Shown one piece after another: positions 624 to 64,000 of a stretch of 64,000 nucleotides of DNA. The position numbers and the translations under genes are program-made. Each line of letters starts with the position of its first letter. Position 1 is the first letter of the stretch. Source of the stretch: Heterodontus francisci (Eukaryota); assembly GCF_036365525.1 (NCBI RefSeq), contig NC_090387.1, forward strand, positions 70,953,535-71,017,534. The letters are read 5' to 3'. The notes under the pieces are model-generated. The model was not told where the DNA came from. It saw only the letters and a list, made by a program, of their open reading frames with translations, and searched no databases.

Positions 624-3600
624 TCAGCCCATAGTCTCCCTCAGCATGATCCCTCCACCATCCAGACTAACACAACCTGACCTCCATTCGGGATTCTGAC
701 TGAGTGGGAGAGTGTGTGGATACCAGGGGTCCCCTATCTGCACCCATCCATTTTTCTTTGTCCTCATAAACCACACTTTATTGTTTACTCTCATCATCTT
801 TTTGGATGGATTACAAATGATGCACATCCCTTTCCCTTCTCGAACTTCACAAACTGTTTTTGCGTTGTTGAACGCGCAGTTTATTTGGTAATTTCCCGTG
901 AGCACCCCGGTGTATTCTTCCTTCTCATGCCCCACCAATTTACCCCACTCCACGCTTGAATTCCCAATGTATATACCTCCGCCTCAACCCTAGGGGTTTC
1001 AGTGGGATAGATGCGATAAATGACTGGCTCTGCATTATCATTATTATTTTAATTATTTTGAAGTGCTAACATCTTGTCTGGACATAGGTTGCCAGTCACG
1101 AATCCCAGGATCGTCACCCTTAGCGTCATCTTCATAATTCTGTAAGATAAAAGAAAAAACAAAACAAAACCCTGATCTGTGAGAAAATTTGCCACAGGCA
1201 TATTATAATGATATACAATCGAACTTTAATGGTACGTGAAATTAGGGTCAATCTGGGTCTCCTGACCCTGTTACTCCTTCTCAGGGGCTGCGATGGTGTT
1301 CTTTGTCGTGACGATGGTGTTCTCTCAGACAACTCAATTTTAGTATCTCCAGCTGCCATCTGGAAAAAGTGTTCTAACGTTCAGGTGTTACCATCTGTGG
1401 TGTCACCTACGGGAGTGTCACCACCTACGGGAGTGTCACCATCTACAGGACTGTCATCTATGATACCCCCCTGATGTGGGATAGGGGTTTTGTCACAATC
1501 TCACATGATTGGATCACAGGGTTGCAGAGAGGCAATTCCGCCAGAACTATTAGGCTTCGGTCCTGCATTTGGCGGCTGGTGAATCTTCATCTGATTAATG
1601 TGAAACCACTTGACCCACTTGGGCACCTGGACAGCAAACACCGTAGTGCACTACAGAGTAGGGGCCTTTGTAGAGTGGTTCAAACACTCCCACTCTGGTG
1701 TAATTTCGGACCATGATCTGATCTCCCACAACTCACTCCTGAGGTTTCAGTTGCTCCAAGTTCAATCGGTTACGCTGGTGACTGTGACCTATAGTTATGG
1801 CATTGAGATATAGGGAACGCAATGTCTGCCACAACTCAGCCATAAATTTGCCCTTGGTCACTTCCCTGGCCTGTGCCTCGGTAAGGGTGGGCACCAGTAT
1901 ATGCTGTGGTGTTCTCATCTGATGCCTGGTGATCAGTTCATGAGGGGACCTCATCCCACTTATAGCATTTTTGAGGGTACGGTCCATGTGTTCCATGACA
2001 TCTGAAGACTGGGGATTGTATGCAATGTGCCATTTACCTTCAATCCCTCAGAGCTTTACAGTAGCCTGCATTACCTGTCCTATGAAGTGGCTGCCCTGAT
2101 CTGACCTCATCATCTGCAATAGCCCCCATCGAGAAAATACTTCCCTAGCTGGGGTCTTGGCAGCCCACAATGCAGTGGCTGATTTACGGGGAAAAGCTTC
2201 CACCCACTTGGTGAACAAGACAGAACTTGTTACCTTTCCTTGTCGTAGGTAGGGAACCAATAAAATCAATCAGAACACACTGCCAGGGTCCCTCTATGTG
2301 CCTAGTATGACCCATGGAAACCTTGTAATGAGGATCAGGATTGTTTGCTGCACAGGCCAAACAGGTTTCCCAATGACTGACAACATCCTGGTGGATGCTG
2401 GGCCACCAAGTCACAGGCCTGATGCGTTCACAGGTAGCCTCAAAGCCGGGGTGACACACTCCTGGACCCCCTATACTAATTAGCATTACTATACTAATAA
2501 GCTCTTAATGATATCCCTCGGGGACAACCTACCTATCATCTTTAAACAACATTCCTTCCCTTAACTGGACATCCAGGGCTCCAAAAGGTCCTTCCACTGG
2601 GGAATTATCTAGTTTGGCCTGGATGGCTGCCCTCAGAACTACATCTTTCACTTGTACCTCTTTCAAGTCGTCTGGGAGCTGGATCTCAACAGGTGTATTG
2701 GGAGTAACTGCCGTTACTACACCCGACTGATTGGGGTCCCAAGGCATTTCTTCTACAGCCCCATTTTTGGCTAATTCGTCCACCTTCTTATTCCCTTCCC
2801 ACCTAGGCTCAGTTTTAGAATGAGCCTTAACCTTGTGGATGTAAACCTGGCCATCCGCTTTCCTGCCCAGCTGGAGAATAGCCTTCAACAAAGAGATGCT
2901 TTTGCCGGTAAACATTGAGTCCCAGCAGATCATATAGGGAGTAGGAAATTCCTGAGGGCGGGTAACTACATAAGTGACAGCAGCCAGCTCGGCCGGTTGG
3001 GCGTTGATGTGGGATGGTCATTTTATAGTCAGCTCAATGCTTCGGAGGGGGTCATGGATTCCACAACCCATCTTCCGTTCTCCTTGTTCTACAAAATTAG
3101 ACCCATCCACATAAATGTCTCACCCTTTGGGATGTATTCCTGCCCGGAACACCACATCAGTCACCCAGACCCCCTCCACGGTGCACTTATGGGGTTCCCC
3201 CTTCCCCCTGGATAGCTGAGGTTAGCTGCCAGCTGACGCTCCAGCAGTGATTTGATCTTTAGGGTGGTGTTCTGCAAAAAAAAGGTTCCACCGAGCCACT
3301 CCTGCACTGGACACCGTCCCCTCTTTGATGTGCCCCTCTAGTAATATTCGGGTAGGGGTGTGATGGGTGGTCAGCATCACCACCTGACTGCCAGTATACA
3401 GGGTGAAATATTTCACTGACCAGAAGGTGACCAGTAGATGGCGCTCACACACCAAATATCCCTTCTGTCCCTCAATGAGGACCCTCGACACGATGCTACC
3501 GGCTGGTGGAGGCCGTCTACCTCCTGCAGAAGGAATCCACTTAGGTTGGTGTTGCTTGCAGCAACTTCCAGAGTGAATTCTCTGGTTGGGTCCACCATAA

Positions 3601-4870
3601 CCAGTGCCGGAGCCGACTGTAAATCTCCCTTCAATTGGACAAAAGCCTCCTCGCACTGCTGTGTCCACTCCCAGTCTACTCCCTTCTTAAGCAGGGCTAA
3701 CAGTGGTGCTGACTTCCCACCATAATCCTCAATGAACTCCCTGCAATACCCGGTAAGGCCCAAAAATGATCGGTGGGCTGGCACTGATCCCAGGCAGTTA
3801 AGCACCTCTATGATTTCCCACCTCCCCTGATCTATGGCCAATTCCCCTGGTCTGATCGTCAAGCCTAGAAATTGGACTTCCTTCTGTTTCATCTGCACCT
3901 TCTTGGGTGCAACCCCATCTTCTCCTACTACCCCTCCCCACAAGTAATTAGTCCCCATATCAACTGTCACCTGGTGGCAGAGCATCCAGCCTGCTCCCAA
4001 AACTCCTACTCCTGTGTCTGACCACTTGCCTCTCGTAATAAAGCCAGGAATTCTGCCAAGATTCCTTATGGTCCCATTTACTCTCGGAGAAGAGGAGAAG
4101 TCAGCCACATATTGGTTGAGGTGGCCGGGTCAACTAAATCCTTTCAGGGCATCAGCCATACACTGGTGGAAGATGGAAGGGCTGTTATGAAAGCCCTGGG
4201 GCAAACATGTCCAGGTATACTGCTGATCCTTAAATGTGAAAATGAATTTGTACTGGTCCTCCTTCCTTACCAGGATGGGCCAAAACCCATTCGATATATC
4301 TAAAACAGTAAATATCTGGGTGCCGACTGGGATAGCAGCTATCAAGTCTGTCACAGCAGCAACCATGGGGGCACAAGCTAGGATGTTCTTATTGAAGACC
4401 TGGTAGTCCACTGTCATCCTCCATGACCTGTCTGGTTTCTTCACTGGCCAAATGGGGGAATTGACATGGGTAGCTATCAGTCAGAGAACTCCCTGTCCCA
4501 CTAGGGATTTCATTGCTTTCTCTAAGTCATCCTCTGCCTCTCTTGGGAAGGTGTATTGTTTCTGGGGTCACACGGTAGCTTCCCCATCTATTTGTCCCTC
4601 CATCCCGGCCACCCTTCCACAATGAGGCCCTCTGTTCCTCAATTAAATCTTTATATTCGGATCGGCTATTCTGTATCAGGGCATCAGTGTCATACGATCT
4701 CAATGAAATGATCGGCTGCCTTTTCTGGTTCTCCCAGGGAAGACCACAACCCCATCTTCTCCTAATACCCCTCCCCACAAGTAATTAGTCCCCATATCTA
4801 CTGTCACCTGGTGGCAGAGCATCCAGTCTGCTCCCAAAACTCCTACTCCTGTGTCTGACCACTTGGCCAG
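624..4870 (-). mobile_element. Decayed retrovirus-type LTR element: protease C-terminus, RT, tether, RNase H, integrase, then an env-like remnant
   Basis: VLGADW (protease C-term); PIWPVKKPDRSWRMTVDY, LDISNGFW, LPQGFHNSP, YVAD (degenerate YxDD); KVKAHSK..GNKKVDELAK (RNase H); HPG..CLAC, IDFIG, SDQGSHF (integrase). Many stops and frameshifts. Confidence 0.92.
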
Positions 4871-6099
4871 AATTCTGGCACAGCCGGAAGCAGCAGCCTT
4901 CCATCCTGGATTGGGACTTGCAGCACCTTATGGGGAATTCTGGAGCACAGACCAACCTGCTTCAGAAACGGTGTTAGTCTGTGCCATTGGTGCTGTGAGA
5001 TTCTGGTGTGTCACCAGAAACTGGAGCAGAGGCCTGTGCAGCTAGCGTAGCAGCCCCTAGAGCATCTTAAAGATGCACTAATTCCATCTCCAATGAGTTT
5101 GTTTCTTCTTTGAAGTGCAAACTCACTTTTGTATTCAGCACCAAGCCCCCATCAGCCCCTCTATTCTACCACTGTCCCTCCTCAATCCCCCACTGCCACA
5201 TTGTGAGAATCTTAGCAATTCTAGGTACATTTTTAATGAAGACTGAAGCAGCCATTTAGAGACATTTGTTTGGGAATTTGCCTTCCCCATCCCAAAGCTA
5301 TCAGTCACATTTCATAGCCAAGGTGATACCATAGACATTCCTTTAGGGAATCTACCAACTCTTCTCAAGATGACAGGTGACGAGAGAGTGGATCAGGAGC
5401 AGCAGAGGGAGGCTGCAGATGAATGAGAACAAGAAGCACAACAGGTGGAATTGTCACCAGCCCTTAAGCAGCAAGACAAAAGTGAATCCATATCCACTTC
5501 ACTTCATCACTGTCTATTGCAGGACCATTTCTGGATCAAGTTCCCCCGGCAAAAGGTGGTGAGGGGCCTACTTGCCGACAATGAAACAATAAATGATTCC
5601 TGGCAAAGGAAGTGTAAAAGTAAGAAAACATTCCAGAGGGGTTTGCAGCTGTTGAATTTGAAAGGGAATGTGTGTGTTATGGACATGGCCTGACAAAACA
5701 GCACAAACAGAGTAAGGAGGGGACTGACATACTGTGGTAAACCTCTTCACATGGAAGGTTGGAAGTTCAGAAATTGCCCTCACCCATTCCATTATGTCCA
5801 GCTATGCAGCCCTGACCATGTTTCGTTGAAGACCGAGCCCTTCATTCCCAAAATGGCACCTCTCAGTGCCTGTATCTCCTTCACAGTGGCTCTCTCAGAA
5901 AAAACAAGTTTGCCTTTCACCAAAGGCTGCGTTTGCTGACAATGCTGCCACTAGGTGACGCTGCGGTGCCACTAAAACGTCACAGTCTGCAACTTCAGGC
6001 AGCTGCCAGGACTAAAGATGGCGCTGCTCAAATAATCACATGAAGGCAACATAACCTAAACACATGACAGCACATAATGGCGGGAGAGAGAGAGCAAAC

Positions 6100-6840
6100 G
6101 AGCGAACGAGCGGGGCCGGCGCTGGGGGGGGCGGAGTGGGGCCGGAGCTGGGGGGGGCGGAGTGGGGCCGGAGCTGGTGGGGGCGGAGTGGGGCCGGAGC
6201 TGGGGGGGGGGGCGGAGCGGGGCTGGAGAGCAGCCGGAGATGGGGGGCGGGGCGGAGCAGGGGGCGGAGCTGGGACGGAGCTGGGGGGGGCGGAGCGGGG
6301 CCGGAGCTGGGGGGTGGGGCCAGAGCTGGGGGCGGGGCGGGCCGTAGCTGGGGGAGCGGAGCGGAACCAGAGATGGGGGTGGCGGGGCCGGAGCTGGGGG
6401 GGCAGGATGGGGCCGGAGCTGGGGGCGGGGCGGTGCCGGGCCGGAGCTGGGGGGCAGGGCGGGGCCGTTGCTGGGGGGGGCGGAGCGGGGCCGGAGCTGG
6501 GGGAGCAGGGCGGGGCCGGAGTTGGGGGGGTGGAGTGGGAGAGGGCGGGGCGGGGGGCGGTGCAGGGGGACGGGGTGGCGGTGGAGGGGAGGGGAACGGG
6601 GGCTGGGGGACGGCGGTGGAGGCGGATGTGGGGAGGGGGACGGGGTGGGGGCGGGGAACGGGGGGAGGAAGGGGACAGGGGAGGGGGGGAGGGGGATGGG
6701 TGGGGGTGGAGGGGTTCGGAGGGGGATGGGAGGGGAGCGGAGTGGGCTGGGGGGGAGGGGAGCGAAGCGGAGTGGGCTGGGGACGGGGGAGAGTGGAGCG
6801 GCCGGAGAGAGCAGCGAGGGGGGTGGGGGGGGGGGGTGCG
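6100..6840. repeat. GC-rich, G-skewed minisatellite (unit approx. GGGGCGGAGCGGGGCCGGAGCTGGG)
   Basis: Tandem imperfect units with G runs. Source of the spurious Pro/Gly-rich ORFs. Confidence 0.9.
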
Positions 6841-7409
6841 GAGCTTGACGTATGGGTGAATTCCCGTTAGCGTTGCATTGCTGTACGCATAAAGCGCATG
6901 CGCAGAGGCCAACCAGGCGCGTTGCCCGAAGATACACACGTCACGCGATGGTGCCATCTGCGCATGCACTAACCAGTCCTGGCAAGTTGGAACGCAGTGC
7001 ACACGCAGAGAACAGGAGACCATCTGCGCATGTGCGCACTTTGGCGCAGCCTGATGACGTCAGTGGGCGGCTACGTTGTCAGGAATCACTTTGTTCTCCA
7101 AACGCACCCCTCTTAAGCCCCACAGGAAGTGTCAGTGTAACTTTAAAGTTATACTCACGTCAGAAATTACCCACTCTGCCCCAGCTCTGTGAACTGGGTA
7201 TATGTGAAATTTGGAACTCTCTTCTGCAAATAGCAATAGATGTTAAATCAATTGTAAATTTTTAATTTGAGATTGATAGACTTCTGTTTGCCAGAGGTAT
7301 TAAGGGATATGGGGCAAAAGCAGGTATATGGAGTTCGGTGGCAAATCAGCCATGATGTCATTGAATGGGCAAACAGACTTGATGGGCTCAATGGCTTCCT
7401 CCTGTTCCT

Positions 7410-10400
7410 ATGGGATGTCTGGCTGGACGCCTGGTTCCAGTGAAGATGGGGAGGGGACACAGGCCACAGCACTCCAGCTCCTTCCAGAAATCTGACGGTG
7501 ATATTTACAGAATCTCACAATCTGCGCTGCTCAAGTGCCTCTGCCAGGTCACTGATACCATGTTAACCAGGGTTGGTACTTACATCCACTTCGCAACTGA
7601 TGAGGCCAGTCGGAATGAGTGGTCTTTCAGGTTTGCTGTTCAGGCTGAATTCCCACAGGTACAAGGAGTCATAGATTGCACACATATGAAAATCGAGGTG
7701 CCCTCAGATCACCCAGCAGTATTCATTAACTGAAAGGGATTGCACTTCATTAATGTTCAGTTGGTCTGCAACCACTGAAATATCATCAAGCCTGTCTGTA
7801 CAAGACACCCAGGCAGCTGCCATGATTTCTTCATCCTGCACCAGTCAAGTTTCCCACAGATATTCCACACCCCCAACCAGTCAGCAGATGGCTCCTTGGA
7901 GACAAGGGAAACCTTCTAAAGACATGGCTGATGACACCTGTAGGGCGCCCTAGCACTGACTCCCAGGAAAGGTACAACCAACGACACATGAGTGCAAGTG
8001 GTCATTGAGCAAGCAATCAAAATGCTGAAGGGAGCCTGCACAGATGTGGAATGTCTTTCAGTATGTACCAGCAAGTGTTTCGAGAACGAGAGTAGTGTTT
8101 TGTTCCTTGCACATATTCGAGCAGCAGAGAGAATTGATGCTGCAGGGAGAAGGAAGCTGATGAGCACATTGCAACTTTGGAGGAGGAGGGAGAGGAGCTA
8201 GAGGAGGAGTCTGATTGGCCAAGGGATATAGCCACCTCAAGTAGTTGCCAGGGATTCTGGGATGACCTGACGAAAGCAAGCTTCAGCCAATCTGAAAAGG
8301 TGCAGCCATCTGTCAGATCAATTCTGAACCCTCTGTGCCCACCCAATCCCCCAGCACAAAGAAGCCCACAATAAACAATCCATCGCTCTCACTGACACCC
8401 ATTGCTTGTCTTTACCTCCGCTCCTACCATTCTTCATTGGGTAGAAGGTCACTTGGCAGACATCAGGCAAAATGGGGCAATGGAGTTTTGAAACAAAGTT
8501 TATGGCTGATAAACTTAAAACAGAAATGTGACAATGTAAAACCGTGTTAAACCCTCAAGCGAATACCGTTGTGTAAATAATTTCTCTTCCTTTTTCTTGC
8601 AACCCCTGCGACTTCAGCAGAGGCAGAGGCAAGCTGTTCGTTTCCTGCTCAGATGCTCTTGGCTGATGTCCTCTGGGTTTCGCAGCCCATGAGGGCTCTG
8701 GCGAAGACTCACTCATCTGTACCTGTGTGGTGGAAGACCCGGCCATCAGAACAGAAGGCAGCATGTGCGGATCTGACTGACAGAGGGGCGACAAGGGGTG
8801 AGGAGAGGAAGCACCTTAAGCAGAGGCCCACGTCTATCTGCCCTTTCTCCATCTTCCCTCTCATGACCCAGCCCAATTTCCTGCTAGTCAAGAGCTGGAG
8901 AGCAATTTACTGCGGTTCAGTGAGGCACTGAACAGTCAAGGTGAAACTTTCCTCCATCCTGTTTAAGGTGCCTGACTGAGTACACAGGCCATTGGTGAGG
9001 GCCAACATGCACTTGGTTACATGCTGGCTCTGATGCTCTATGTAGGTGGTCACTCTTCCTATGGATGTAGATATTAATAGAAAGACCTGAGACGTCATGG
9101 CACTCATGTTAGAATCGGACTCCTCCAACCTCTTTCCAATCACATGCAGTGCCACTGGAAAGGCTGACAGAACCTCACATACTTACTGTTGCTGCTCCAG
9201 AATAGTCCTATTTGTCAACGGTCCTGCATCCTCCAATGGTGACTCTCCACTGCTGTCCCTGTCTCCACCACCTGCTCCTGCTCACTTGTAATGTAGGCTT
9301 TACCATGTGACAACCCAACTACCTGTCTTGGCGGCCCAACCAGGTGTGTGTGTCTCCCCTATTGAGGGATGCACATGAGTCCTGTGAGGATGTTTCTTCA
9401 CAGTGAGTGACCTCCTCTGAGGAGTCTTCATCGTCCTCCAGCAGCACCTCCTGAGGGACACTTGTAGGACTTGTGAGAAATGAAAGGCATGCATTAAAAC
9501 TGATAGGGTGGGAGGGTTCTAAGCCATCATTGTGCAGATCATCATTTCTCAGTGGTTACTAACATGGTCGACATGAGTAAGTGTTGTATGCCGTGTGGTT
9601 GTGTGATATTTCATTTTGTCACCAGGTAGCTAGGAGACGCCCATCATTCCATTTCCAATGGTTAAGCATGTCAAGACCCATCTTACCTCCAGTGCTTCTC
9701 CACAGCTGTCCATATGGAGATGACTGGAGGACCACCTCTGGTTCTCTGCCTCCCCCTAGTGGTCTGCACTCTCTTTTCCTGCAAGGAGAGAAAGAAGAGA
9801 CCTATGAGTGTGAGATGTGGAATGCTTTGAGATGGTGGAAAGCCAAGATTTGTGGAGGGTCATTGTGAGGGACAGGTGTGACATGACGAGATAATGTTGA
9901 GTGTCAGATGTGACTTGTCAGATGGGGATGTGAGGAGGTGCCTTGAGGGAGAGGGATGGGTGCACCTGTAAGGGTGTTGATCTAAGGAGTGATGTGCAGC
10001 AGAAGGTTGGGAAAGCAAAATGAGGGGAGTTGCCTTTGAATGTGCCATGCTACTCACTTTTACTGCCCATATTGGGTAATTGAAACTCTTGCAGCACTGT
10101 ATCCAGGAGCAAAGCACCACACTCCTGCTGCTAACCTCCTTTGCCACACCCAGCCAATCCTGCTTGATTTCTGAGACTGTCCTCTTACTCCTGTCCAGGG
10201 GAACAGAATCTCCCTGCACGCCCTCACAGCCCACTGCATGATGTCCAGGTACGTATGTGAGAGGCGTGGTGCTGCCTTTCTACATTGACAGTCCATCTGT
10301 GAAGCTCCTAGCTCTGTTTTGACACTTCTTGAATGCTCCCATTCTGACCTTGGTAGGGTCCCTTTAAATAGTGGAGCTGAAGCAGACAGCTGCGGGTCGT

Positions 10401-10480
10401 CATAACGCCCGCCTGCTCGTTCACTGTAATAGGTTGAGAAAACCAGAAGCCAGGTACAAATGCCGTGGGTCAGTTAAAAA
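7410..10480. mobile_element. PIF/Harbinger remnant: HARBI1-type DDE transposase (+, ~7410-8300) convergent with a Myb/SANT-like gene (-, ~8550-10296)
   Basis: [35 protein letters not shown] on +. RKAAPR(L/F)S..EILFP..W..VAKEVS..WIQCCKSFN on -. Disrupted by stops. Confidence 0.88.
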
Positions 10481-12579
10481 GCCACCAATAAGCGCACTGC
10501 TGAAACTTCTGAGTTCCCAAAGTGCTGCTGGCCTTTCCCACAGCAAGTAGGTCTGATGGTGTCGAGCTTCTTGAGTGTTGTTGGAGCTGCACCCATCCAG
10601 GTAAGTGGAGAATATTCTATCACACTCCTGACTTGTGCCTTGTAGATGGTGGATTGGCTGAAGTCTGGCATCTGTGATACTGGGGACTTCAGGAGAAGGC
10701 CGAGATGGATCATCAACTCGGCACTTCTGGCTGAAGATTGTTGCAAATGCTTCAGCCTTATCTTTTGCACTGATGTGCTGGGCTCCCCAATCATTGAGGA
10801 TGGGGATATTTATACATCCATTGGGACCTTTAAAGACTGTTGTGGTCTGGCACTCTCATTCATTAGTAGTGATTGTGACATTGCCAGCTTTATAGCTTTT
10901 GCACTGCGTACCTTTAGAAATACAAAGATATTGGGTGTTTTTCTCTCTCTCTCTTTTTCTCAAATGATAGTTGGATCGTGCAAAGTAAGTGAGGAGATCA
11001 CTAAATAATGCAGCACTTTCACCATGTATGGGAAGAAACTCCATGGGTCACCCAACATCTTCCCCATTTTAACTTAAGATCTGAAATTAGGCTGGGACCC
11101 ACCTTACAGGAGGCATTGTGTGAGATGAAGGTTCAGTCCCTAGTCCCAAGACCAGCAGTGGAAGATAGACAGGGACAACTAATGCTTGGAGTTGCCAGAT
11201 CACCAGCTCGGAGTGGGATTATCAGTCCCTTGTGCGGAGGCCACAGCAAGTCTGCATCTGGTGGGAATGGGCCCCAGCTAGGCGTCCAGGCTGGAATCAT
11301 GATGGGGGCCTGGCTTTTGCACTTGTGGCAAGCAGGACAGAGCTACATTTCCTGCCCTGACCTCAAACACTCTGGTGGCGACAAATGCTAAGGCTTCCAG
11401 CAGCCTAGCCTGGGATCCACAGCCCGTGGATATTTGAGTCAATGATCTCATGGGCAGAGATTCTGTCAGATTAGATGGTGATTTAGTTTTTAGCCTTTCT
11501 TCAGTATATTCTACCTCTGGATTTGGTTGCTGAATTAATAATTTGTTTAGTGACTGATCTGTGTACACTTCTTAATGAAATAATGAGATAAATTGAGCAG
11601 ACATGTTACTTACACTTGCTCATCAATTTTCTATGAGGTTTTGCATGGCAAGTTGCTGTTCGGCAAACATCTACATGGCTCAATGCCTTCTACAGAGTGT
11701 CTGGCACCTGCGTGAACAGGGGAAGCAACTGTATGTTTCCTTAACCAGTCAGATAAAAGAATCATTATTGAACAGTGCAGAGTCTGAAACAGGAAGTGGC
11801 AATTAGAATATTAGATTCAAAGTTGAATCAGTACAGAAAGCAAAATAAAGGGGGCAAGAAAGACTGGACTAAGAGAGAGGTAAGAGACAGAAAGAATCAT
11901 TTAAAAGGATTTTTACTTTAATTTTTTTCAATCTCCAACAATAATTAGAAGCTGAAGAAATGAGACTCCATAACTTTAAAATTCATTTAAAGTACCAGGA
12001 AGATTGTTTGGCAATAATAAAGACTTACTATAGTGTTAAAAGGCTACTGAAACTGGAATGGACAAGACTTGCTATTTTGGGTGAATTTAGTCCATATCAA
12101 TGATGTTAGGAGTTTTCTGCCATTCAATTTTTTGGAATGATGTCATGCTCAGAAGGAGCCATGAGAAAATAAACAATGAATTGGAGCAATTATGAAAATA
12201 TGAAAACCTGCTAAACTGAACCACAAGAACATGGACACTTGTGTCACAGACAAAATGGAGTAGTGGTCACATGACCAAGGGTTGGCAACATGTCCTTACA
12301 TGGACACCAGTGTCCATGGTAAACAATTTTGGGGTCTGTGATTGGTAATTTCAAAGATGAGAAATTTCCCATTGTCTTCTTCAGACTGGCTTTTAAAACA
12401 ATTGCAAGTGTTAGTTTCACAGCTGACAGGTGCTGAAGCAAAACAGTGCTTCCGAACTTTGGACAGATTTGTGGTTTTCTGGCGGGCTCTGATTTTTCTT
12501 TAAAAGTTTGCTGGAAAACCTCGAATTTGTGCGAAGATCAAATGTGCTGCTGCCACTTTCAGCAGCAGTCAGAGAGAAA

Positions 12580-18457: not shown

Positions 18458-18503
18458 ATGTCCAGCTGTATTCCCCTGCTCATCCTGGTAATCGTCTCTA
18501 CTG
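18458..18503 (+). CDS. Exon 1, signal peptide (MSSCIPLLILVIVST)
   Basis: ATG in context caacATG, hydrophobic core, strong donor G|GTGAGT in phase 1. Joins the V exon to give ...VIVSTVTGA-ST, a plausible cleavage site. Confidence 0.85.
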
Positions 18504-52710: not shown

Positions 52711-54054
52711 CTTGACGTATGGGTGAATACCCGTTAGCGTTGCATTGCTGTACGCATAAAGCGCATGCGCAGAGGCCAACCAGGCGCGTTGCCCGAAGAT
52801 GCACACGTCACGCGATGATGCCATCTGCGCATGCACTAACCAGTCCTGGCAATTCGGAACGCAGTGCACACGCAGAGAACAGGAGACCATCTGCGCATGT
52901 GCACACCTTGGCGCAGCCTGATGACGTCAGTGGGCGGCTACGTTGTCAGGAATCACTTTGTTCTCCAAACGCACCCCTCTTAAGCCCCACAGGAAGTGTC
53001 AGTGTAACTTTAAAGTTATACTCACGTCAGAAATTACCCACTCTGCCCCAGCTCTGTGAACTGGGTAAATGTGCTGACGATGCAGCACCTATATGCTAGT
53101 AAGGGGACGGTCCAAATTCTGGCATCTCCTCAGTGTGCCAGCCATGCCAAATGCCCCTGTGCCAGCAAGTCACCAGGGCCATAATTCCAGGTCCTGAATG
53201 ATATGCCAATAATGTCTGTCTCAGAGTTAAGGTGCACTTGGCCAAATCTCACTCCTATTTACAACTTCCATCAGTTTTACCAGAGCGGAAAAGCATCACC
53301 CAGATTGGGGCCGAGGCAGAGACAATTACATTTAGTAATATTTCACCTTTCAGTTTTATGTTGTCGTATTTGGAACTAGAACCAATATCAAACCAAGCCT
53401 CACCACATATCCTTCCTTATAAAATAATCCACATATAAAACAATCTCCCAAATATCCCTCCAAAACAGTCAAAAAATTGGGACCATTGTTTAAGTTGAGA
53501 GTTGACAAAGCATGAATACACAAAAATGTTCCTCTTCAAACACATTTCTCTCAGCTCTATCTCATTCCAACCAGCATTTCTCCACCAGCTGTTGTTTCAC
53601 TCTTCCTGCACCATAATAAATAAATATATATACATCTGCCAGCTGCATTCTGTCCTGGTTCCCAATTCCCATTTGAAAGTTGCACATCTGGCTCTCCTCT
53701 CTATTTTATCACAATTACTTGGAGCAGAGGCTGACTAGCACATGGGCCTACAGAACCCAGACAAGTATGTCCCCCCCACCCCCCCCCACCCAACACCCGT
53801 GCCTTTTCAGGAGTGAAATTAGGAAACATTTCTACACACAAAGGGTGACTGAAATGTGGAACTCTCTTCTGCAAATAGCAATAGATGTTAGATCAATTGT
53901 AAATTTTTAATTTGAGATTGATAGACTTCTGTTAGCCAGAGGTATTAAGGGATATGGGGCAAAAGCAGGTATATGGAGTTCGGTGGCAAATCAGCCACGA
54001 TGTGATTGAATGGGCAAACAGACTCGATGGGCTCAATGGCCTCCTCCTGTTCCT

Positions 54055-57000
54055 CTGGGATGTCTGGCTGGACGCCTGGTTCCAGTGAAGATGGGGTGGG
54101 GACACAGGCCACAGCACTCCAGCTCCTTCCAGAAATCTGCCGGTGATATTTACAGAATCTCACAATCTGCCCTGCTCAAGTGCCTCTGCCAGGTCACTGA
54201 TACCATGTTAACCAGGGTTGGTACTTACATCCACTTCGCTACTGATGAGGCCAGTCGGAATGAGTGGTCTTTCAGGTTTGCTGTTCAGACTGAATTCCCA
54301 CAGGTACAGGGAGTCATAGATTGCACACATATGAAAATCGAGGTGCCCTCAGATCACCCAGCAGTATTCATTAACTGAAAGGGATTGCACTTCATTAATG
54401 TTCAGTTGGTCTGCAACCACTGAAATATCATCAAGCCTGTCTGTACAAGACACCCAGGCAGCTGCCATGATTTCTTCATCCTGCACCAGTCAAGTTTCCC
54501 ACAGATATTCCACACCCCCAACCAGTCAGCAGATGGCTCCTTGGAGCCAAGGGAAACCTTCTAAAGACATGGCTGATGACACCTGTAGGGCGCCCTAGCA
54601 CTGACTCCCAGGAAAGGTACAACCAACGACACATGAGTGCAAGTGGTCATTGAGCAAGCAAACAAAATGCTGAAGGGAGCCTGCACAGATGTGGAATGTC
54701 TTTCAGTATGTACCAGCAAGGGTTTCGAGAACGAGAGTAGTGTTTTGTTCCTTGCACATATTCGAGCAGCAGAGAGAATTGATGCTGCAGGGCTGATGAG
54801 CACATTGCAACTTTGGAGGAGGAGGGAGAGGAGCTAGAGGAGGAGTCTGATTGGCCAAGGGATATAGACACCTCAAGTAGTTGCCAGGGATGCTGGGATG
54901 ACCTGACTAAGGCAAGCTTCAGCCAATCTGAAAAGGTGCAGCCATCTGTCAGATCAATTCTGAACCCTCTGTGCCCTCCCGATCCCCCAGCACAAAGAAG
55001 CCCACAATAAACAATCCATCGCTCTCACTGACACCCATTGCTTGTCTTTACCTCTGCTCCTACCATTCTTCACTGGGTAGAAGGTCACTTGGCAGACATC
55101 AGGCAAAATGGGGAGGATGGGGCAATGGAGTTTTGAAACAAAGTTTATGGCTGATAAACTTAAAACAGAAATGTGACAATGTAAAACAGTGTTAAACCCT
55201 CAAGCGAATACCGTTGTGTAAATAATTTCTCTTCCTTTCTCTTGCAACCCCTGCGACTTCAGCAGAGGCAGAGGCAAGCTGTTCGTTTCCTGCTCAGATG
55301 CTCTCGGCTGATGTCCTCTGGGTTTCGGAGCCCATGAGGGCCCTGGCGAAGACTCACTCATCTGTACCTGTGTGGTGGAAGACCCGGCCATCAGAACAGA
55401 AGGCAGCATGTGCGGATCTGACTGACAGAGGGGCGACAAGGGGTGAGGAGAGGAAGCACCTTAAGCAGAGGCCCACTTCTATCTGCCCTTTCTCCATCTT
55501 CCCTCTCATGACCCAGCCCAATTTCCTGCTAGTCAAGAGCTGGAGAGCAATTTGCTGCTGTTCAGTGAGGCACTGAACGGTCAAGGTGAAACTTTCCTCC
55601 ATCCTGTTTAAGGTGCCTGACTGAGTACACAGGCCATTGGTGAGGGCCAACATGCACTTGGTTACATACTGGCTCTGATGCTCTATGTAGGTGGTCACTC
55701 TTCCTATGGATGTAGATATTAATAGAAAGACCTGAGACGTCATGGCACTCATGTTAGAATCGGACTCCTCCAACCTCTTTCCAATCACTTGCAGTGCCAC
55801 TGGAAAGGCTGACAGAACCTCACATACTTACTGTTGCTGCTCCAGAATAGTCCTATTTGTCAACGATCCTGCATCCTCCAATGGCAACTCTCCACTGCTG
55901 TCCCTGTCTCCACCACCTGCTCCTGCTCACTTGTAATGTAGGCTTTACCATGTGACAACCCAACTACCTGTCTTGGCGGCCCAACCAGGTGTGTGTGTCT
56001 CCCTTATTGAGGGATGCACATGAGTCCTGTGAGGATGTTTCTTCACAGCGAGTGACCTCCTCTGAGGAGTCTTCATCGTCCTCCAGCAGCACCTCCTGAG
56101 GGACACTTGTAGGACTTGTGAGAAATGAAAGGCATGCATTAAAACTGATAGGGTGGGAGGGTTCTAAGCCATCATTGTGCAGATCATCATTTCTCAGTGG
56201 TTACTAACATGGTCGACATGAGTAAGTGTTGTATGCCGTGCGGTTGTGTGATATTTCATTTTGTCACCAGGTAGCTAGGAGACGCCCATCATTCAATTTC
56301 CAATGGTTAAGCATGTCAAGACCCATCTTACCTCCAGTGCTTCTCCACAGCTGTCCATATGGAGATGACTGGAGGACCACCTCTGGTTCTCTGCCTCCCC
56401 CTAGTGCTCTGCGCTCTCTTTTCCTGCAAGGAGAGAAAGAAGAGACCTATGAGTGTGAATTGTGGAATGCTTTGAGATGGTGGAAAGCCAAGATTTGTGG
56501 AGGGTCATTATGAGGAACAGGTGTGACATGACGAGATAATGTTGAGTGTCAGATGTGACTTGTCAGATGGGGATGTGAGGAGGTGCCTTGAGGGAGAGGG
56601 ATGGGTGCACCTGTAAGGTTGTTGATCTGAGGAGTGATGTGCAGCAGAAGATTGGGAAGGCAAAATGAGCGGAGCTGCCTATGAATGTGCCATGCTACTC
56701 ACTTTTCCTGCCCATATTGGGTAATTGAAACTCTTGCAGCACTGTATCCAGGAGCAAAGCACCACACTCCTGCTGCTAACCTCCTTTGCCACACCCAGCC
56801 AATCCTGCTTGATTTCTGAGACTGTCCTCTTACTCATGTCCACGGGGAACAGAATCTCCCTGCGGGCCCTCACAGCCCACCGCATGATGTCCAGGTACGT
56901 ATTTGAGAAGCGTGGTGCTGCCTTTCTACATTGACAGTCCATCTGTGAAGCTCCTAGCTCTGTTTTGACACTTCTTGAATGCTCCCATTCTGACCTTGGC

Positions 57001-57125
57001 AGGGTCCCTTTAAATAGTGGAGCTGAAGCAGACAGCTGCGGGTCGTCATAACGCCCGCCTGCCCGCCCACTGTAATAGGTTGAGAAAACCAGAAGTCAGG
57101 TACAAATGCCGTGGGTCAGTTAAAA
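54055..57125. mobile_element. PIF/Harbinger remnant, duplicate copy
   Basis: ORFs 54010..54378 and 56679..56942 match copy 1. Confidence 0.88.
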
Positions 57126-57199
57126 AGCCACCAATAAGCGCACTGCTGAAACTTCTGGGTTCCCAATGTGTTGCTGGCCTTTCCCACAGCAAGTAGGTC

Positions 57200-58500
57200 T
57201 GATGGTGTCGAGCTTCTTGAGTGTTGTTGGAGCTGCACCCATCCAGGTAAGTGGAGAATATTCTATCACACTCCTGACTTGTGCCTTGTAGATGGTGGAC
57301 AGGCTTTGGGGAGTCAGGAGGTGAGTTACTCACTGTAGGATTCCTAACGTCTGACCTGCTCTTGTAGCCACGGTATTTATATGGCTACTGCTGTTCAGTT
57401 TCTGGTCAATGGTAACCCCCCAGGATGTTGATAGTGGGGGATTCAGCGACCGTAATGCTATTGAATGTCAAGGGGAGTTGGTTCGATTCTCTCTTGTTTG
57501 AGATAGTCATTGCCTGGCACTTGTGTGGCGCGAATGTTACTTGCTACTTATCAGCCCAAGCCTGGATATTCTACATGGACTGCTTCAGTATCTGAGGAGT
57601 CATGAATGGTGCTAAACATTGTGCAATCATCAGCGAACAACCCCACTTCTGACCTTATGACTGAAGGAAGGTCATTGATGAAGCAGCTGAAGATGGTTGG
57701 GCCTAGGACACTACCCTAAGGAACTCCTGCAGTGATGTCCTGGAGCTCAGATGATTGACCTCCAACGACCACAACCATCTTCCTCCGCACTAGGTATGAC
57801 TCCAGCCAGAGGAGAGTTGTCCCCCTGGTTCCCATTGACACCAGTTTTGCTCGGGCTCCTTGATGTCATACTCGGTCAAATGTTGCCTTGATGTCAAGGG
57901 CAGTCACTCTCACCTCACCTCTTGAGTTCAGTTCTTTGGCCCATGTTTGAGCCAAGGCAGTAATGAGGTCAGGAGCTGAGTGGCCCTGGCAAATTGAGCA
58001 TCACTAAGCAGGTTGTTGCTAAGCAAGTGCCACTTGAACGCACTGTCGACGACACCTTCCATCACTTTACTGATGATTGAGAGTAGACTGATGGGGTGGT
58101 AATTGGTCGGGTTGGATTTGTCCTGCTTTTTGTCTACAGGACATACAATTTGCCACATTGTCGGCTAGATGCCAGTGTTGTAGCTGTACTGGAACAGCTT
58201 GGCTGGTGGGGTGGGGGGAGGGTGGGTGCTAGTTCTGGAGGACAGGTCTTCAGTACTATTGCCAGAATATTGACAGGACCCATAGCCTTTGCAGTATCCA
58301 GTGCCTTCAGTCGTTTCTTGCTATTACGCGGAGTGAATCGGATTGGCTGAAGTCTGGCATCTGTGATACTGGGGACTTCAGGAGAAGGCCCAGATGGCTC
58401 ATCAACTCGGCACTTCTGGCTGAAGATTGTTGCAAATGCTTCAGCCTTATCTTTTGCACTGATGTGCTGGGCTCCCCAATCATTGAGGATGGGGATATTT
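57200..58500 (-). mobile_element. LINE RT fragment (CR1/L2 group); mostly missing from copy 1 (10550-10810)
   Basis: KKQDKSNPTNYHPISLLSIISKVMEGVV, plus an LDIKATFDRV-like and a GVP-GSVLGP-like motif. Confidence 0.85.
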
Positions 58501-60280
58501 ATACATCCATTGGGACCTTTAAAGACTGTTGTGGTCTGGCACTCTCATTCATTAGTAGTGATTGTGACATTGCCAGCTTTGTAGATTTTGCACTGTGTAC
58601 CTTTAGAAATACAAAGATATTGGGTGTTTTTCTCTCTCTCTCTTTTTCTCAAATGATAGTTGGGTCGTGCAAAGTAAGTGAGGAGATCACTAAATAATGC
58701 AGCACTTTCACCATGTATGGGAAGAAACTCCATGGGTCACCCAACATCTTCCCCATTTTAACTTCAATAGGCGTGTGCCAGAAAGATCTGAAATTAGGCT
58801 GGGACTCACCTTACAGGAGGCATTGTGTGAGATGAAGGTTCAGTCCCTAGTCCCAAGACCAGCAGTGGAAGAAAGACGGGGACAACTAATGCTTGGAGTT
58901 GCCAGATCACCAGCTCGGAGTGGGATTATCAGTCCCTTGTGCGGAGGCCACAGCAAGTCTGCATCTGGTGGGAATGGGCCCCAGCTAGGCGTCCAGGCTG
59001 GAATCATGATGGGGGTCTGGCTTTTGCACTTGTGGCAAGCAGGACAGAGCTACATTTCCTGCCCTGACCTCAAACACTCTGGTGGGGACAAATGCTAAGG
59101 CTTCCAGCAGCCTAGCCTGGGATCCACAGCCTGTGGATATTTGAGTCAATGATCTCATGGGCAGAGATTCTGTCAGATTAGATGGTGATTTAGTTTTTAG
59201 CCTTTCTTCAGTATTTTCTACCTCTGGATTTGGTTGCTGAATTAATAATTTGTTTAGTGACTGATCTGTGTACACTTCTTAATGAAATAATGAGATAAAT
59301 TGAGCAGACATGTTACTTACACTTGCTCATCAATTTTCTATGAGGTTTTGCATGGCAAGTTGCTGTTCGGCAAACATCTACATGGCTCAATGCCTTCTAC
59401 AGAGTGTCTGGCACCTGCGTGAACAGGGGAAGCAACTGTATGTTTCCTTAACCAGTCAGATAAAAGAATCATTATTGAACAGTGCAGAGTCTGAAACAGG
59501 AAGTGGCAATTAGAATATTAGATTCAATGTTGAATCAGTACAGAAAGCAAAATAAAGGGGGGAAGAAAGACTGGACTAAGAGAGAGAGACGTAAGAGACA
59601 GAAAGAATCATTTAAAAGGATTTTTACTTTAATTTTGTTCAATCTCCAACAATAATTAGAAGCTGAAGAAATGAGACTCCATAACTTTAAAATTCATTTA
59701 AAGTACCAGGAAGATTGTTTGGCAATAATAAAGACTTACTATAGTGTTAAAAGGCTACTGAAACTGGAATGGACAGGACTTGCTATTTTGGGTGAATTTA
59801 GTCCATATCAATGATGTTAGGAGTTTTCTGCCATCCAATTTTTTGGAATGATGTCATGCTCAGAAGGAGCCATGAGAAAATAAACAATGAATTGGAGCAA
59901 TTATTAAAATATGAAAACCTGCTAAACTGAACCACAAGAACATGGACACTTGTGTCACAGACAAAATGGAGTAGTGGTCACATGACCAAGGGTTGGCAAC
60001 ATGTCCTTACATGGACACCAGTGTCCATGGTAAACAATTTTGGGGTCTGTGATTGGTAATTTCAAAGATGAGAAATTTCCCATTGTCTTCTTCAGACTGG
60101 CTTTTAAAACAATTGCAAGTGTTAGTTTCACAGCTGAAGCAAAACAGTGCTTCCGAACTTTGGACAGATTTGTGGTTTTCTGGCAGGCTCTGATTTTTCT
60201 TTAAAAGTTTGCTGGAAAACCTTGAATTTGTGCGAAGATCAAATGTGCTGCTGCCACTTTCAGCAGCAGTCAGAGAGAAA

Positions 60281-60612
60281 GCGGCACAGTGGTGCAGTGG
60301 TTAGCACTGCAGCCTCACAGCTCCAGGGACCCGGGTTCGATTCTGGGTACTGTCTGTGTGGAGTTTGCAAGTTCTCCCTGTGTCTGCGTGGGTTTTCTCC
60401 GGGTGCTCCGGTTTCCTCCCACAGTCCAAAAGACTTGCAGGTTGATAGGTAAATTGGCCATTATAAATTGTTACTAGTTTAAGTAGGTGATAGGGACAGG
60501 TGGGGATGTTTGGTAGGAATATGGGATTAGTGTAGGATTAATATAAATGGGTGGTTGATGGTCGGCACAGACTCGGTGGGCCGAAGGGCCTGTTTCAGTG
60601 CTGTATCTCTAA
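60281..60612 (+). mobile_element. tRNA-derived SINE, duplicate copy
   Basis: Nearly identical to 12580-12912. Confidence 0.88.
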
Positions 60613-61548
60613 TCGAAAGAAGGGGAGAGTGGGTGGGGAGTGCATAGTGATAGAAAGTATGGGAGAGAGACACAATGGGGGACAGAGAGCGGAGAGAGAA
60701 AGAGTGGGAGAGAGTGTGGGAGAGGAAGACAGTGAGGGGTACAGAGAGAGAGAGTGAGGGTACAGAGAGAGTGGAGGAGAGAGAGTGGGAGAGAGGGGAC
60801 AGAGAGAGAGAGACTGGGAAAAGGGCGGACAGAGAGAGAGTGGGGGAAGAGAGAGTGGGGGAAGAGAGAGTGGGGGAAGAGAGAGTGGGGGAAGAGAGAG
60901 TGGGGGAAGAGAGAGTGGGGGACAGAGAGAGAGAGGTGGGGGGATAGAGAGAGAGAGAGGTGGGGGGATAGAGAGAGAGAGAGAGAGGTGGGGGGATAGA
61001 GAGAGAGAGAGGTGGGGGGATAGAGAGAGAGAGAGGTGGGGGGATAGAGAGAGAGAGAGGTGGGAGGACAGAGAGAGAAAGAGAGGTGGGGGGACCGAGA
61101 GAGAGAGGAGAGACAGAGAGAGAAAAGAAGGAACAGAGAGGGCAGGTCTGACACGGTGGTGGTGCTGGTGGGGAAACAACACAAGAGGGAAGCAACACAG
61201 AGAGGGAACGGACAACACAGGAGGGGGAGACAAAAGGGGGAAGGACAGCATGGGGGGGCACAGAGAGGGGGTGATCAGAGAGGGAGGCAGAGAGAGAGGG
61301 AGGAATAGAGAGGGTGGATCCGACATGGCAGGGGGATTAACATGGGAGAGAAGCAACACAGAGAGAGGATGGAGCAACACGGGAGGGGGGGTCAACACAG
61401 GGGGCAGACAGCACGGAGAGGGAACAATATGGGGGGACAACATAGAGTGGGGAACAGCACAAAGGGGGAGGGACACAGAGAGGGGGGCACAGTGTGGGAC
61501 AGGGAGGGAGAGACACACAGACAGACAAACAGAGGAGGGAGAGAGAGC
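60613..61548. repeat. GA-rich polypurine tract, expanded duplicate
   Basis: Contains extra tandem GAGAGAGTGGGGGAA and GAGAGGTGGGGGGATA units relative to copy 1. Confidence 0.9.
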
Positions 61549-63307
61549 AATCAAGATCACTCCTGATGGATGGATGGAAGTATATCTGGAATACTCCCCA
61601 TCACCTACACAAGAGTGCAGCCAGGCATTGACTACTTGTGCAAGCAAAAAAATGCCAGGTATGTCACTAAATCAGTGTCCAACATAGTAACAGGAAGGTA
61701 AGTCAATAAATTAGTCTTCTAATTTAAAGCTTCTTCACAATAATACACATTTGTTGTTTTGATTAATAGTAAGATAAATTTTAATGCCTTTATCTTTCCA
61801 AAATTATCTCACCGGTCCCCTATGTAAGACAAAAATGACAATGTGCCCCCCCCCACCCCCACCCCCACCCCCACCCCCACCCCCACCCCCACCATGCAAA
61901 AAGGCTGGACACCCCTGTTCCAAGCCTTGAACCATGTGTTTTAACATAACTTAGCAGCTAAGTTATTTTAAAAGTCAAGTTTAAAGGCCTGTGTTGTGTA
62001 AACTCATTTTAAAATGGCTAAAGTCACTTAGGGAATGTCTCGATTTCTCTGCTCTGGCACGCATTACTTTCACTTGGGACACAAGCTCAGTAAGATGTTG
62101 AAAGTTACTGGACTTTACTTCGATATAAATATCATAATTCTGCTGCTATCCATTGGGAATCATATTGTTCCAGAACTTGTATTAAGGGGGAAACAGGCAA
62201 GAAAATCCAAAGAATCTCCAGAAGTCAGCACTGTACGTTCTTTGTGAATACAAGACTATGGTGTATTGGGGCTGAGTCATATTGGCGAAAACATGATGCT
62301 GCTGATCCAAATACAATAGTTAGGAAATCACAGATAGTTTTAATAAGCTTTAATCTATGATGAACTGTCTATGATTCCTTAACAAAATCCATGCTGCAAA
62401 AATTTGCAGTTTTAAAAACTGTCAGAGAAGACGTAGTAAAAAGTTATTATGTTTCAATGACCATATTAGAAACAGTCATTAACTGCTTTTTTGCTGTGAA
62501 TTGTATTACAGGACAAGTGTTGCAAGTATGTCAAAGATCAGTAACTTCAATGTGCATCATTTACTATCCAGTTTGATGGCAGATAACCTGAGAGGCCAAT
62601 GTCATTTGAAGGTTGTCTGTATCATATAATTACATTACATTATAAGTGCACCTTTGCTAATAGGTAAGAGATTTGGCTTGGACATAAATTGGTTAGTCTG
62701 GAGTACAATCTTACAGATGGTGACTAAACATTTTGCAATTGAATAATACATGCAGTAACAACCGCCCAACCTTTTGCAGAAAAGCTTTTTGTTAGTAACT
62801 ATCTTGTCAGAGCTGAGTCAGAATCAACAGTGATAGATTACGATATAGACATAAATGAATTTAAGAGAATTGCTTCATTAGAGGAACTGAAGGGCGCTCT
62901 TTCTTTGTAATTGTGTTTATCTAATTTTGTCACTATTTTGATTGTTAACTAGCTAAAACAGTTGTGCTGCTCTCCATTGATGTTTGTATGCTTAGCTACT
63001 TTATTTATAGGGAGAAATGTGTTTTAAACAGGACTTTGATTTTATGGCATTAGGTTGGCTGGACACTTTATATACAGAGTAATTGCTCCCATGTCCGTGG
63101 CTGTCAATAATTTTGTCAAAGGTCCGTGGTGCAACATGTCAGTGCCTATCCCTGTACGTGATTCCTCCTGTACTGGTAATACACACCTCTGTTGAGGATG
63201 AACCTTGTTCACCTTATCTCAAATAGCTCTGAGGAGAAGCAATTGAAATTGAAAGGCACACCATTGCATCCTATCTACAAGAATGAACTAACAAAAGGTT
63301 TTGGAGT

Positions 63308-64000
63308 AAAAACAAGAAATGCTGGAAATACTCAGCAGGTCTGGCAGCATCTTTGGAGAGAGAAGCAGAGTTAATGTTTCGGGTCAGTGACCCTTCTTCA
63401 GAACTGACAAATATTAGAAATGTCAAAGGTTATAAGCAAGTAAAGCGGGGGTGGGGCAAGAGATAACAAAGGAGAAGGTGTACATTGGACAAGGCCACAG
63501 ATTAGCTGACCAGAAGGTCATGGAGCAAAGGCAAACAATATGTTAATGGTGTGTTGAAAGACAAAGCATTAGTACAGATAGGGTGTTAATAGACTGAAGA
63601 TTGAACAGCTGCAACTACTAATATGAAAAAACAGTGGGTAAGCAAACATGCAAAAAAAATGTTAAAAATGTAAAAAAGAAAAAATATCTAAAAATAAAAG
63701 TAGAATGGGGTCCAGTCATGCTCTGAACTTATTGAACTCAGTGTTCAGTCCAGCAGGCTGTAGTGTGCCTAATTGGTAAATGAGATGCTGTTCCTCGAGC
63801 TTGCAGCAAGCCCACGATAGAGATGTGAGCATGAGAACAGGGGGGAGTTTTGAAATGGCAAGCAACCGGAAGCTCAGGATCCTGCTTGCGGACTGAGCGG
63901 AGGTGTTCTGCAAAGCAGTCACCCAGTCTGCCTTTGGTCTCCCCAATGTAGAGGAGACCACATTGTGAGCAGTGAATACAGTATACTACATTGAAAGAAG
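63308..64000 (-). mobile_element. Penelope-like element, duplicate copy
   Basis: Matches 16290-17020. Confidence 0.9.

What the first reader, a model, noticed from the sequence alone, without database searches (positions are those of the whole stretch)
3228..64000. Recent ~46-47 kb tandem duplication predicts a paralogous receptor just beyond the window
Seen: about 14 kb upstream of the receptor gene (3228-17020) recurs in direct orientation at 48955-64000 with only scattered substitutions and indels. Copy 1 is visible to within ~1.4 kb of the ATG. Inference: if collinearity continues, a second leader exon starts near position 65,450. The locus would then be an expanding receptor cluster like KIR/LILR/NITR/CHIR, possibly with paired activating and inhibitory members and copy-number variation.
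Basis: partly seen in the sequence, partly recalled or inferred. Interest (0 to 1): 0.75.

Follow-up and report, generated by a model that had tools for sequence, protein, structure and literature searches.

The report
Duplicated shark antibody-like receptor gene
This horn shark DNA holds a head-to-tail repeat about 46 kb long that likely carries a second, 98%-identical copy of a non-rearranging, antibody-light-chain-like membrane receptor gene; the two copies have the same membrane and tail sequence, so they are not an on/off pair, but they belong to a larger shark, ray and chimaera family whose other members look like paired inhibitory and activating immune receptors.

Summary
The duplication is real in the sequence: 3229-17029 recurs at 48955-64000, with 1.6% substitutions and three kb-scale indels. 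The junction cuts two unrelated retroelements and shows no long shared homology.

The gene at 18458-34253 is a horn shark (Heterodontus francisci) RefSeq gene with six coding exons: leader, germline-joined VJ, C1, TM and two tail exons. A second RefSeq gene, with consecutive accessions on a contig of the same length, differs at 6 of 364 residues. It is most likely the predicted paralog, but its position was not shown. A false haplotype join is unlikely but not excluded.

The pair has identical uncharged TMs and near-identical tails without a canonical ITIM, so it is not an activating/inhibitory pair. There is no sign of positive selection.

The cluster idea holds at family level. Horn shark has at least 10 related VJ-C1 units, one annotated as a V/C chimera. 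Catshark has ITIM members and TM-arginine members with 95-98% identical ectodomains. Strong named relatives were cartilaginous fish only.

The duplication is ordinary birth-and-death evolution; the family is the interesting part. Ten open-access searches found no description of it, but key closed papers were not seen.

The parts
3229..17029 (+). Copy 1 of the repeated stretch (upstream flank of the receptor gene), as far as the window lets it be compared
48955..64000 (+). Copy 2, direct orientation, runs off the window; second ATG predicted near 65,429
48954..48955 (.). Breakpoint: left side is a retroelement frame cut in mid-course, right side starts inside the pol region of a different element; no homology between the two left flanks
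18458..18503 (+). Exon 1, leader (MSSCIPLLILVIVST); the leader is completed in the V exon (split leader, cleavage site inferred)
19003..19320 (+). Exon 2, single-exon germline-joined VJ domain with GxGTxLxV G strand; no CACAGTG/CACTGTG heptamer between 18401 and 23239
28067..28372 (+). Exon 3, C1-set domain
31133..31252 (+). Exon 4, uncharged TM with juxtamembrane cysteines; two acceptors, 31133 and 31142, match the RefSeq isoforms
33229..33272 (+). Exon 5, basic juxtamembrane tail
33993..34253 (+). Exon 6, tail to the stop codon, with MAYTAV and VIYATP; no canonical ITIM
14987..15913 (.). 927 bases present in copy 1 only, with a 4-base flanking repeat
53072..53849 (.). 778 bases present in copy 2 only; likely deleted from copy 1, since it holds the start of a LINE fragment that copy 1 lacks
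57297..58339 (.). 1043 bases present in copy 2 only, with a 3-base flanking repeat; likely deleted from copy 1
1736..4480 (-). Broken LTR-retroelement/ERV-like pol pieces (RT, RNase H-like, RNase H, integrase zinc domain); they continue left of 3229 in copy 1 and are cut off at 48955 in copy 2
47450..48954 (+). Decayed retroelement fragment (Penelope-like by recalled motifs; no Pfam hit) with a roughly 750-base insertion; it ends at the breakpoint

Best explanation
The window holds a direct repeat with a period of about 46-47 kb, likely a true tandem duplication of a whole unit (about 3229-48954) that carries a VJ-C1-TM receptor gene, so the 98%-identical second RefSeq gene is likely the copy that would start near 65.4 kb. 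Shown: the repeat, its breakpoint, the gene structure and the existence of a second annotated gene. Inferred mechanism: the unit was duplicated by non-homologous or microhomology joining, not by crossing-over between shared repeats, because the junction cuts two unrelated retroelements. Each copy then lost kb-sized pieces between 2-4 base repeats, and patchy conversion or recombination left divergence uneven. Both genes encode the same kind of type I membrane protein under purifying selection, so the near-term effect is likely dosage plus a slightly altered binding face (2 changes in the BC loop, 1 at the end of strand F). The protein likely binds a ligand through V and signals through a conserved YA(T/S)P tyrosine to an SH2 adaptor rather than through an ITIM. 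It is the conserved, mostly single-copy 'A' subtype of a cartilaginous-fish VJ-C1 family whose other subtypes likely work as paired inhibitory (ITIM) and activating (TM arginine, short tail) immune receptors.
For: Repeat and indels. The window's spliced exons equal XP_067905726.1; XP_067905728/9 differ at 6 of 364 residues (1.6%), the same order as the flank divergence, on a contig of the same length. Flank divergence is about 8 times the mean diversity reported for epaulette shark (0.002; PMC10587355 passages). There is no shared repeat at the junction through which an assembler could slip and no N in the window. In contigs of one public sample, all 5 listed differences from copy 2 within 48955-51600 are copy-1 letters, other contigs carry copy-2 letters, and one contig shows a third form at 50780-50792. 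Depth is the same in low-repeat bins either side of the junction (12-17 vs 13-14), as expected if the whole unit is doubled. Six replacements against 13 expected at the flank rate (p=0.02). YA(T/S)P is in 12 of 13 A-type proteins including skate. Family. Catshark ITIM versus Arg/short-tail members are 95-98% identical in the ectodomain.
Against: The second gene's coordinates were never seen; consecutive accessions and equal contig length are indirect. No listed contig bridges the junction (87,583 pieces not shown), no single-copy depth baseline was measured, and the two RAD runs gave no usable cover. Equal depth either side of the junction also fits a single-copy locus with two alleles. Immune loci can hold very divergent alleles, and horn shark heterozygosity was not available. 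The sample may be the one the window was assembled from, so it is not independent. Ligand, expression and signalling are untested, and the adaptor preference of YxxP is recalled.
Confidence: 0.8

Rival explanations
1. False duplication: the two copies are the two alleles of one locus, joined in tandem by the assembler, and the second RefSeq gene is the other allele.
For: The junction was not shown bridged, and depth either side of it is equal with no baseline. Near-identical neighbours are a known assembly artefact (own knowledge). The epaulette shark has a similar near-identical pair (100% ectodomain identity) that could itself be such an artefact.
Against: 1.6% divergence plus three kb-scale indels in 14 kb against shark diversity of 0.002. 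The junction is clean and gap-free, between unrelated elements, with no shared repeat. A third sequence form exists at 50780, which one diploid single-copy locus cannot give if that sample is the assembled one.
Confidence: 0.12
2. Only the upstream flank was duplicated: homology stops before the leader, and the second gene lies elsewhere on the chromosome.
For: The window ends 1.4 kb short of the predicted ATG, and no coordinates were seen for XP_067905728.
Against: Identity is undiminished up to base 64000. A gene with matching divergence and the next accession numbers exists. The stretch 42000-48954 also shows second forms in the contigs.
Confidence: 0.06
3. The duplicate is the activating partner of an inhibitory receptor, as in KIR, LILR or CHIR pairs.
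For: Such pairs exist in other subtypes of the family. The epaulette shark duplicate has a TM Y-to-D change and a model that ends after 17 tail residues.
Against: The horn shark pair has identical TMs and one R/K change in the tail, and neither tail has a canonical ITIM.
Confidence: 0.02

Closest known systems
PRARP / amphibian VJC1 genes (non-rearranging VJ-C1 genes)
   Same: Joined VJ exon plus C1, TM and tyrosine-bearing tail. PRARP is listed among joined-VJ genes in PMC10751288 and PMC11599192 (passages); its V-C1 layout and tail motifs are recalled.
   Different: No named bony-vertebrate protein came close in three homology searches (best E 2e-25, multi-Ig squamate proteins). Orthology was not tested because no PRARP sequence was in hand. 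This family is multigene, with TM-arginine members.
SIRP family (SIRPa/b/g)
   Same: J-like V followed by C1; paired ITIM and charged-TM members; many RefSeq auto-names are SIRP-like; SIRPa is rank 4 of the PDB hits for the family profile.
   Different: One C1 instead of two. The activating-type members carry Arg near the outer end of the TM (FcRg-type, recalled) rather than a mid-TM Lys. SIRP is not among the top 60 hits for the V exon alone.
UrIg / UrIg2 (shark non-rearranging Ig-like genes)
   Same: Single-exon VJ, split leader and C1-set domains, in elasmobranchs (PMC12227049 section 7). UrIg2 is rank 2 of the PDB hits for the family profile, helped by its several domains.
   Different: UrIg2 has nine or more C domains and liver/gill expression. 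This gene has one C1 and a 107-residue tyrosine tail, and belongs to a multigene family.
NCR3 / NKp30
   Same: Single-exon VJ; weak V hit (E 6e-4); TM arginine in some family members.
   Different: NKp30 has no C1 (recalled), and the window's gene has an uncharged TM. The V is no closer to NKp30 than to TCRa, light chains or amphioxus IgVJ-C2.
Germline-joined shark Ig light chains
   Same: The VJ-C1 ectodomain folds like a light chain; the top Foldseek hits are Fab chains, mostly light chains.
   Different: Only 14-22% identity, and it has TM and tail exons.
KIR / LILR / CHIR / NITR clusters
   Same: Birth-and-death duplication, near-identical ectodomains with opposite signalling parts, domain shuffling.
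   Different: Different domain type (C2-set in KIR, LILR and CHIR; V-I in NITR; recalled). An analogy only, and it does not apply to this particular pair.

Membership tests
Non-rearranging VJ-C1 genes | V and J joined in one germline exon, no RSS | tested here: met
   19003-19320 is one open exon through GxGTxLxV; no canonical heptamer before 23240
Non-rearranging VJ-C1 genes | C1-set domain in its own exon | tested here: met
   PF07654 above cut-off
Non-rearranging VJ-C1 genes | Split leader | tested here: met
   Exon 1 ends at residue 15 and VTG lies in the V exon; cleavage site inferred
PRARP | Orthology by tree and synteny | not testable with these tools
   No PRARP sequence was retrieved; paper not held; no genome held
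SIRP | V-C1-C1 ectodomain | tested here: not met
   One C1 only
SIRP | Synteny with the SIRP locus | not testable with these tools
   No genome held
UrIg/UrIg2 | Several C1 domains after VJ | tested here: not met
NCR3/NKp30 | Single V, charged TM, no C1 | tested here: not met
   C1 present, TM uncharged
Ig light chain | No TM or tail | tested here: not met
   TM and 107-residue tail
Paired receptor family (whole family) | Near-identical ectodomains with ITIM tail versus charged TM and short tail | tested here: met
   Catshark pairs 95-98% identical; sequence features only
Paired receptor family (this duplicate pair) | Opposite signalling parts in the two copies | tested here: not met
   Identical TM, one R/K change in the tail
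Inhibitory ITIM receptor (window gene) | Canonical (I/L/V/S/T)xYxx(I/L/V) in the tail | tested here: not met
   0 matches; MAYTAV is a near miss
Paired receptor family | Leukocyte expression, adaptor and phosphatase binding | not testable with these tools
   No RNA or binding data were examined
True tandem duplication | Junction spanned by reads and full depth on both copies | tested here: inconclusive

The most novel reading that the evidence does not exclude
Cartilaginous fish have an undescribed family of germline-joined VJ-C1 membrane receptors, shaped like a light chain with a signalling tail. It has paired ITIM and TM-arginine members and diversifies without RAG, by tandem duplication (this window) and by swapping leader+V exons onto other members' C1-TM-tail bodies (XP_067905821/2). 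It would be a living innate counterpart of the antigen-receptor precursor and a candidate shark NK/myeloid receptor system.
Probability: 0.35. Interest if true: 0.75.

Novelty: new variant of a known kind. Interest (0 to 1): 0.5.

Why it matters
The duplication alone is ordinary, and both genes are already in RefSeq as 'uncharacterized'. The family behind it matters more. Intact single-exon VJ genes are actively sought as relics of the gene that the RAG transposon split (PMC12227049, PMC10751288), and polymorphic paired innate receptors of sharks are poorly known (own knowledge). A multigene VJ-C1-TM family, present from chimaera to rays and hidden under inconsistent automatic names (SIRP-like, B7-H6-like, tapasin-like, light-chain-like, TCRb-like), gives concrete genes to test for synteny, expression and signalling. 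This window shows a duplication breakpoint in that family at base resolution.

Tried and rejected
No whole genome is held, so the next window and synteny could not be read.

Read test (one call, 42000-51600, 4 of 8 listed runs): no listed piece bridges the junction, the two RAD runs fell almost only on repeats, and no single-copy baseline lay in the stretch.

Positive selection on V loops is not supported. There are 3 V changes against 3.8 expected. All three lie in or beside the BC and FG loops (post hoc chance 0.005-0.02), but those columns are no more variable among 11 orthologues than 40 of 101 V columns. dS could not be computed because the paralog's DNA was not in hand.

Dating: the epaulette pedigree rate gives 5.6-11 million generations. 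It is another species' rate with a wide interval, so it was not adopted.

My early idea of concerted V evolution between subtypes was dropped in favour of a single V/C chimera. The grouping of that V with the horn shark A genes is weak (80/62).

A 48-base AG..GT candidate exon at 31635-31682 is not used by the RefSeq models and was left out.

The composite-transposon reading was rejected: the repeat contains unrelated elements and low-depth sequence.

The Atlas gave only generic V/C1 and SIRP-like clusters. Earlier scan findings: none.

Literature searches found no description of this family; one search was for the mutation rate. Fu 2019 (PRARP) and Flajnik 2023 (UrIg) were not held, Ohta 2019 was seen only as a reference, and no supplements were read. 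Any of these may already list these genes.
Full report
OBSERVATION. Self-BLAST shows collinear direct blocks from 3229/48955 to 17029/64000. A global alignment, with the GC-rich and AG tracts and gap edges masked, gives 173 substitutions in 11,117 columns (1.56%). Divergence is uneven along the unit (p=4e-7), and there are 42 gaps, three of them 778, 1043 and 927 bases long. Those three are flanked by 2-4 base repeats, and two look like deletions from copy 1. Collinearity predicts a second ATG near 65,429.

BREAKPOINT. In copy 1 the sequence left of 3229 continues a broken LTR/ERV-like pol region on the minus strand (RT, RNase H-like, RNase H, integrase zinc domain). In copy 2 this region is cut at 48955. 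To its left lies a different decayed retroelement whose reading frame runs up to the junction and stops (the label 'Penelope-like' is recalled, and Pfam gave no hit). The two left flanks share nothing. One point cutting two unrelated elements is the signature of a non-homologous or microhomology joint (inference). It also leaves no long repeat through which an assembler would slip.

THE GENE. Six exons (18458-18503, 19003-19320, 28067-28372, 31142-31252, 33229-33272, 33993-34253) splice to a protein identical to XP_067905726.1 of Heterodontus francisci; an upstream acceptor at 31133 gives the 364-residue form. It has a split leader, a single-exon VJ, a C1-set domain, an uncharged TM, and a 107-residue tail without a canonical ITIM. 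The model is confident over V, C1 and TM and disordered over the tail. Its best fold matches are Fab chains at 14-22% identity. The V alone is only weakly and about equally like amphioxus IgVJ-C2, TCRa, light chains, TIM-3, NKp30 and VNAR.

THE PARALOG. The 90% cluster has 5 members: three isoforms of the window's gene (XP_067905725-7) and two of a second gene (XP_067905728-9), all on a 99,651,266-base contig. The second gene differs at 6 of 364 residues: A46P, P48A, E105G, P124L, V130I, R267K. That fits the flank divergence. Six replacements are fewer than the 13 expected at the flank rate (p=0.02), and the V exon has 3 against 3.8. This points to purifying selection overall and gives no evidence of positive selection. 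The TM is identical, so this is not an activating partner. Its coordinates were not seen.

REAL OR ARTEFACT. For a real duplication: divergence about 8 times the 0.002 diversity reported for epaulette shark (PMC10587355, passages), kb-scale indels, and a clean gap-free junction. In contigs of one public sample (2 of its 4 runs), all 5 listed differences from copy 2 within 48955-51600 are copy-1 letters, with 13 rows of that table not shown. One 399-base piece is pure copy 2. One 1108-base piece carries the copy-1 letter at 50780 beside copy-2 letters at 50786-50792, a third form. If that sample is the assembled animal, three forms need more than one locus. If it is another animal, it carries both types. 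Against or open: no listed piece bridges the junction, depth is equal on both sides with no single-copy baseline, contigs drop variants, and the RAD runs were uninformative. I put a false join at about 12%.

THE FAMILY. A profile search returned 36 proteins among 7,999 candidates. The best 30 (E at most 5e-42) are cartilaginous fish wherever the organism shows (28 of 30); the other six are weak reptile and teleost Ig proteins. A 45-sequence profile returned 21 proteins, of which 20 are from sharks, rays and a skate and one is a weak swan pIgR. These searches are word-limited, so distant orthologues are not excluded. The exhaustive search found 81 unnamed representatives at E at most 1e-30, some of them giant multi-Ig proteins. 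Horn shark has at least 10 distinct V domains on contigs of that same length; physical clustering is inferred. Seven of 11 horn shark models have ITIM/ITSM-type motifs, none of the 10 with a TM has a charge there, and XP_067906052 has the short tail of the arginine type but no TM in its model. Sevengill shark and catshark have members with arginine in or at the edge of the TM and short tails. Catshark ITIM and arginine members are 95-98% identical outside the cell. The window's subtype was found in 11 other species and keeps YA(T/S)P in 12 of 13 proteins. In the clusters read it is doubled only in horn shark and epaulette shark (2 of 12 species). The epaulette second copy has an identical ectodomain, a TM Y-to-D change and a truncated model, and may be an artefact.

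V/C SHUFFLING. XP_067905821/2 has the leader and V of the window's subtype (75% identity; 45% to the other subtype) on a C1-TM-ITIM body of the other subtype (85%; 33% to the window's). AU tests reject grouping its V with the second subtype (p=0.011) and its C1 with the first (p=0.019). The groups were named after seeing the trees. The RefSeq model merges neighbouring units, so a real transcript needs confirming.

MECHANISM. Shown: repeat, breakpoint, gene anatomy, second annotated gene, family motifs. Inferred: microhomology or non-homologous tandem duplication, later deletions and patchy conversion; a surface receptor binding through V; signalling through YATP to an SH2 adaptor in this subtype (the motif's preference is recalled), through SHP phosphatases in the ITIM members, and through an FcRg-type adaptor in the arginine members (established for other families, untested here).

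COMPARISON AND NOVELTY. The family works like SIRP/LILR-type paired receptors and is built like PRARP/VJC1. The window's gene fails the defining tests for SIRP (one C1), UrIg (one C1), NKp30 (C1 present, no charge) and light chains (TM present). PRARP orthology is untested. Papers seen: PMC10751288 (passages), PMC12227049 (passages and section 7), PMC11599192 (passages), PMC10587355 (passages). None of the passages read mentions this family. Searches found no description, but the library lacks most subscription papers. The PRARP, UrIg and 'primordial immune complex' papers and all supplements were not seen.

VERDICT. The duplication is ordinary and the family is possibly undescribed. Interest 0.5.

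Noticed in passing
window 1736-4480 (-) and 48955-50093 (-): Broken LTR-retroelement/ERV-like pol with both an RNase H-like tether and a second RNase H. It has low contig depth (27-57 against about 13 for unique sequence), so it is low-copy. Not classified.
   Followed up: partly
P0002/P0009 (XP_067905821/2): Horn shark model with the window subtype's leader+V on another subtype's C1-TM-ITIM body; the V and C trees disagree.
   Followed up: yes
P0049/P0050 (XP_060693775/6): Epaulette shark has a second near-identical copy of the same subtype with a TM Y-to-D change and a short tail; independent duplication or artefact.
   Followed up: partly
P0022, P0024, P0025/P0058, P0071, P0078: One subtype has no tail tyrosine motif but a conserved tail CxxC (CVRC/CSRC), suggestive of a metal-clasp or kinase-binding site; untested.
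   Followed up: no
P0021 and P0046 (XP_067906077, 6078-9): A second, older duplicate pair in horn shark (88.5% ectodomain identity) with changes concentrated in V.
   Followed up: no
P0026 (XP_067906052): Has the short tail of the TM-arginine type but no TM in the model: secreted form, lost exon or mis-model.
   Followed up: partly
window 31635-31682: In-frame 48-base AG..GT candidate exon between the TM and tail exons, not used by RefSeq models.
   Followed up: no
window 31986-32726: 37-base tandem array, about 20 copies, in intron 4.
   Followed up: no
window 6108-6800 and 51730-52660; 12990-13440 and 60680-61320: GC-rich and AG minisatellites that have changed unit and length between the two copies.
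   Followed up: no
window 331-502, 5916-6063, 51529-51676: A roughly 150-170 base repeat (79% identity) on both sides of the pol region; high contig depth; not checked as an LTR remnant.
   Followed up: no
window 40180-41039 and 48122-48823: Two inverted-orientation copies of a roughly 750-850 base element, one of them inserted into the retroelement left of the junction.
   Followed up: no
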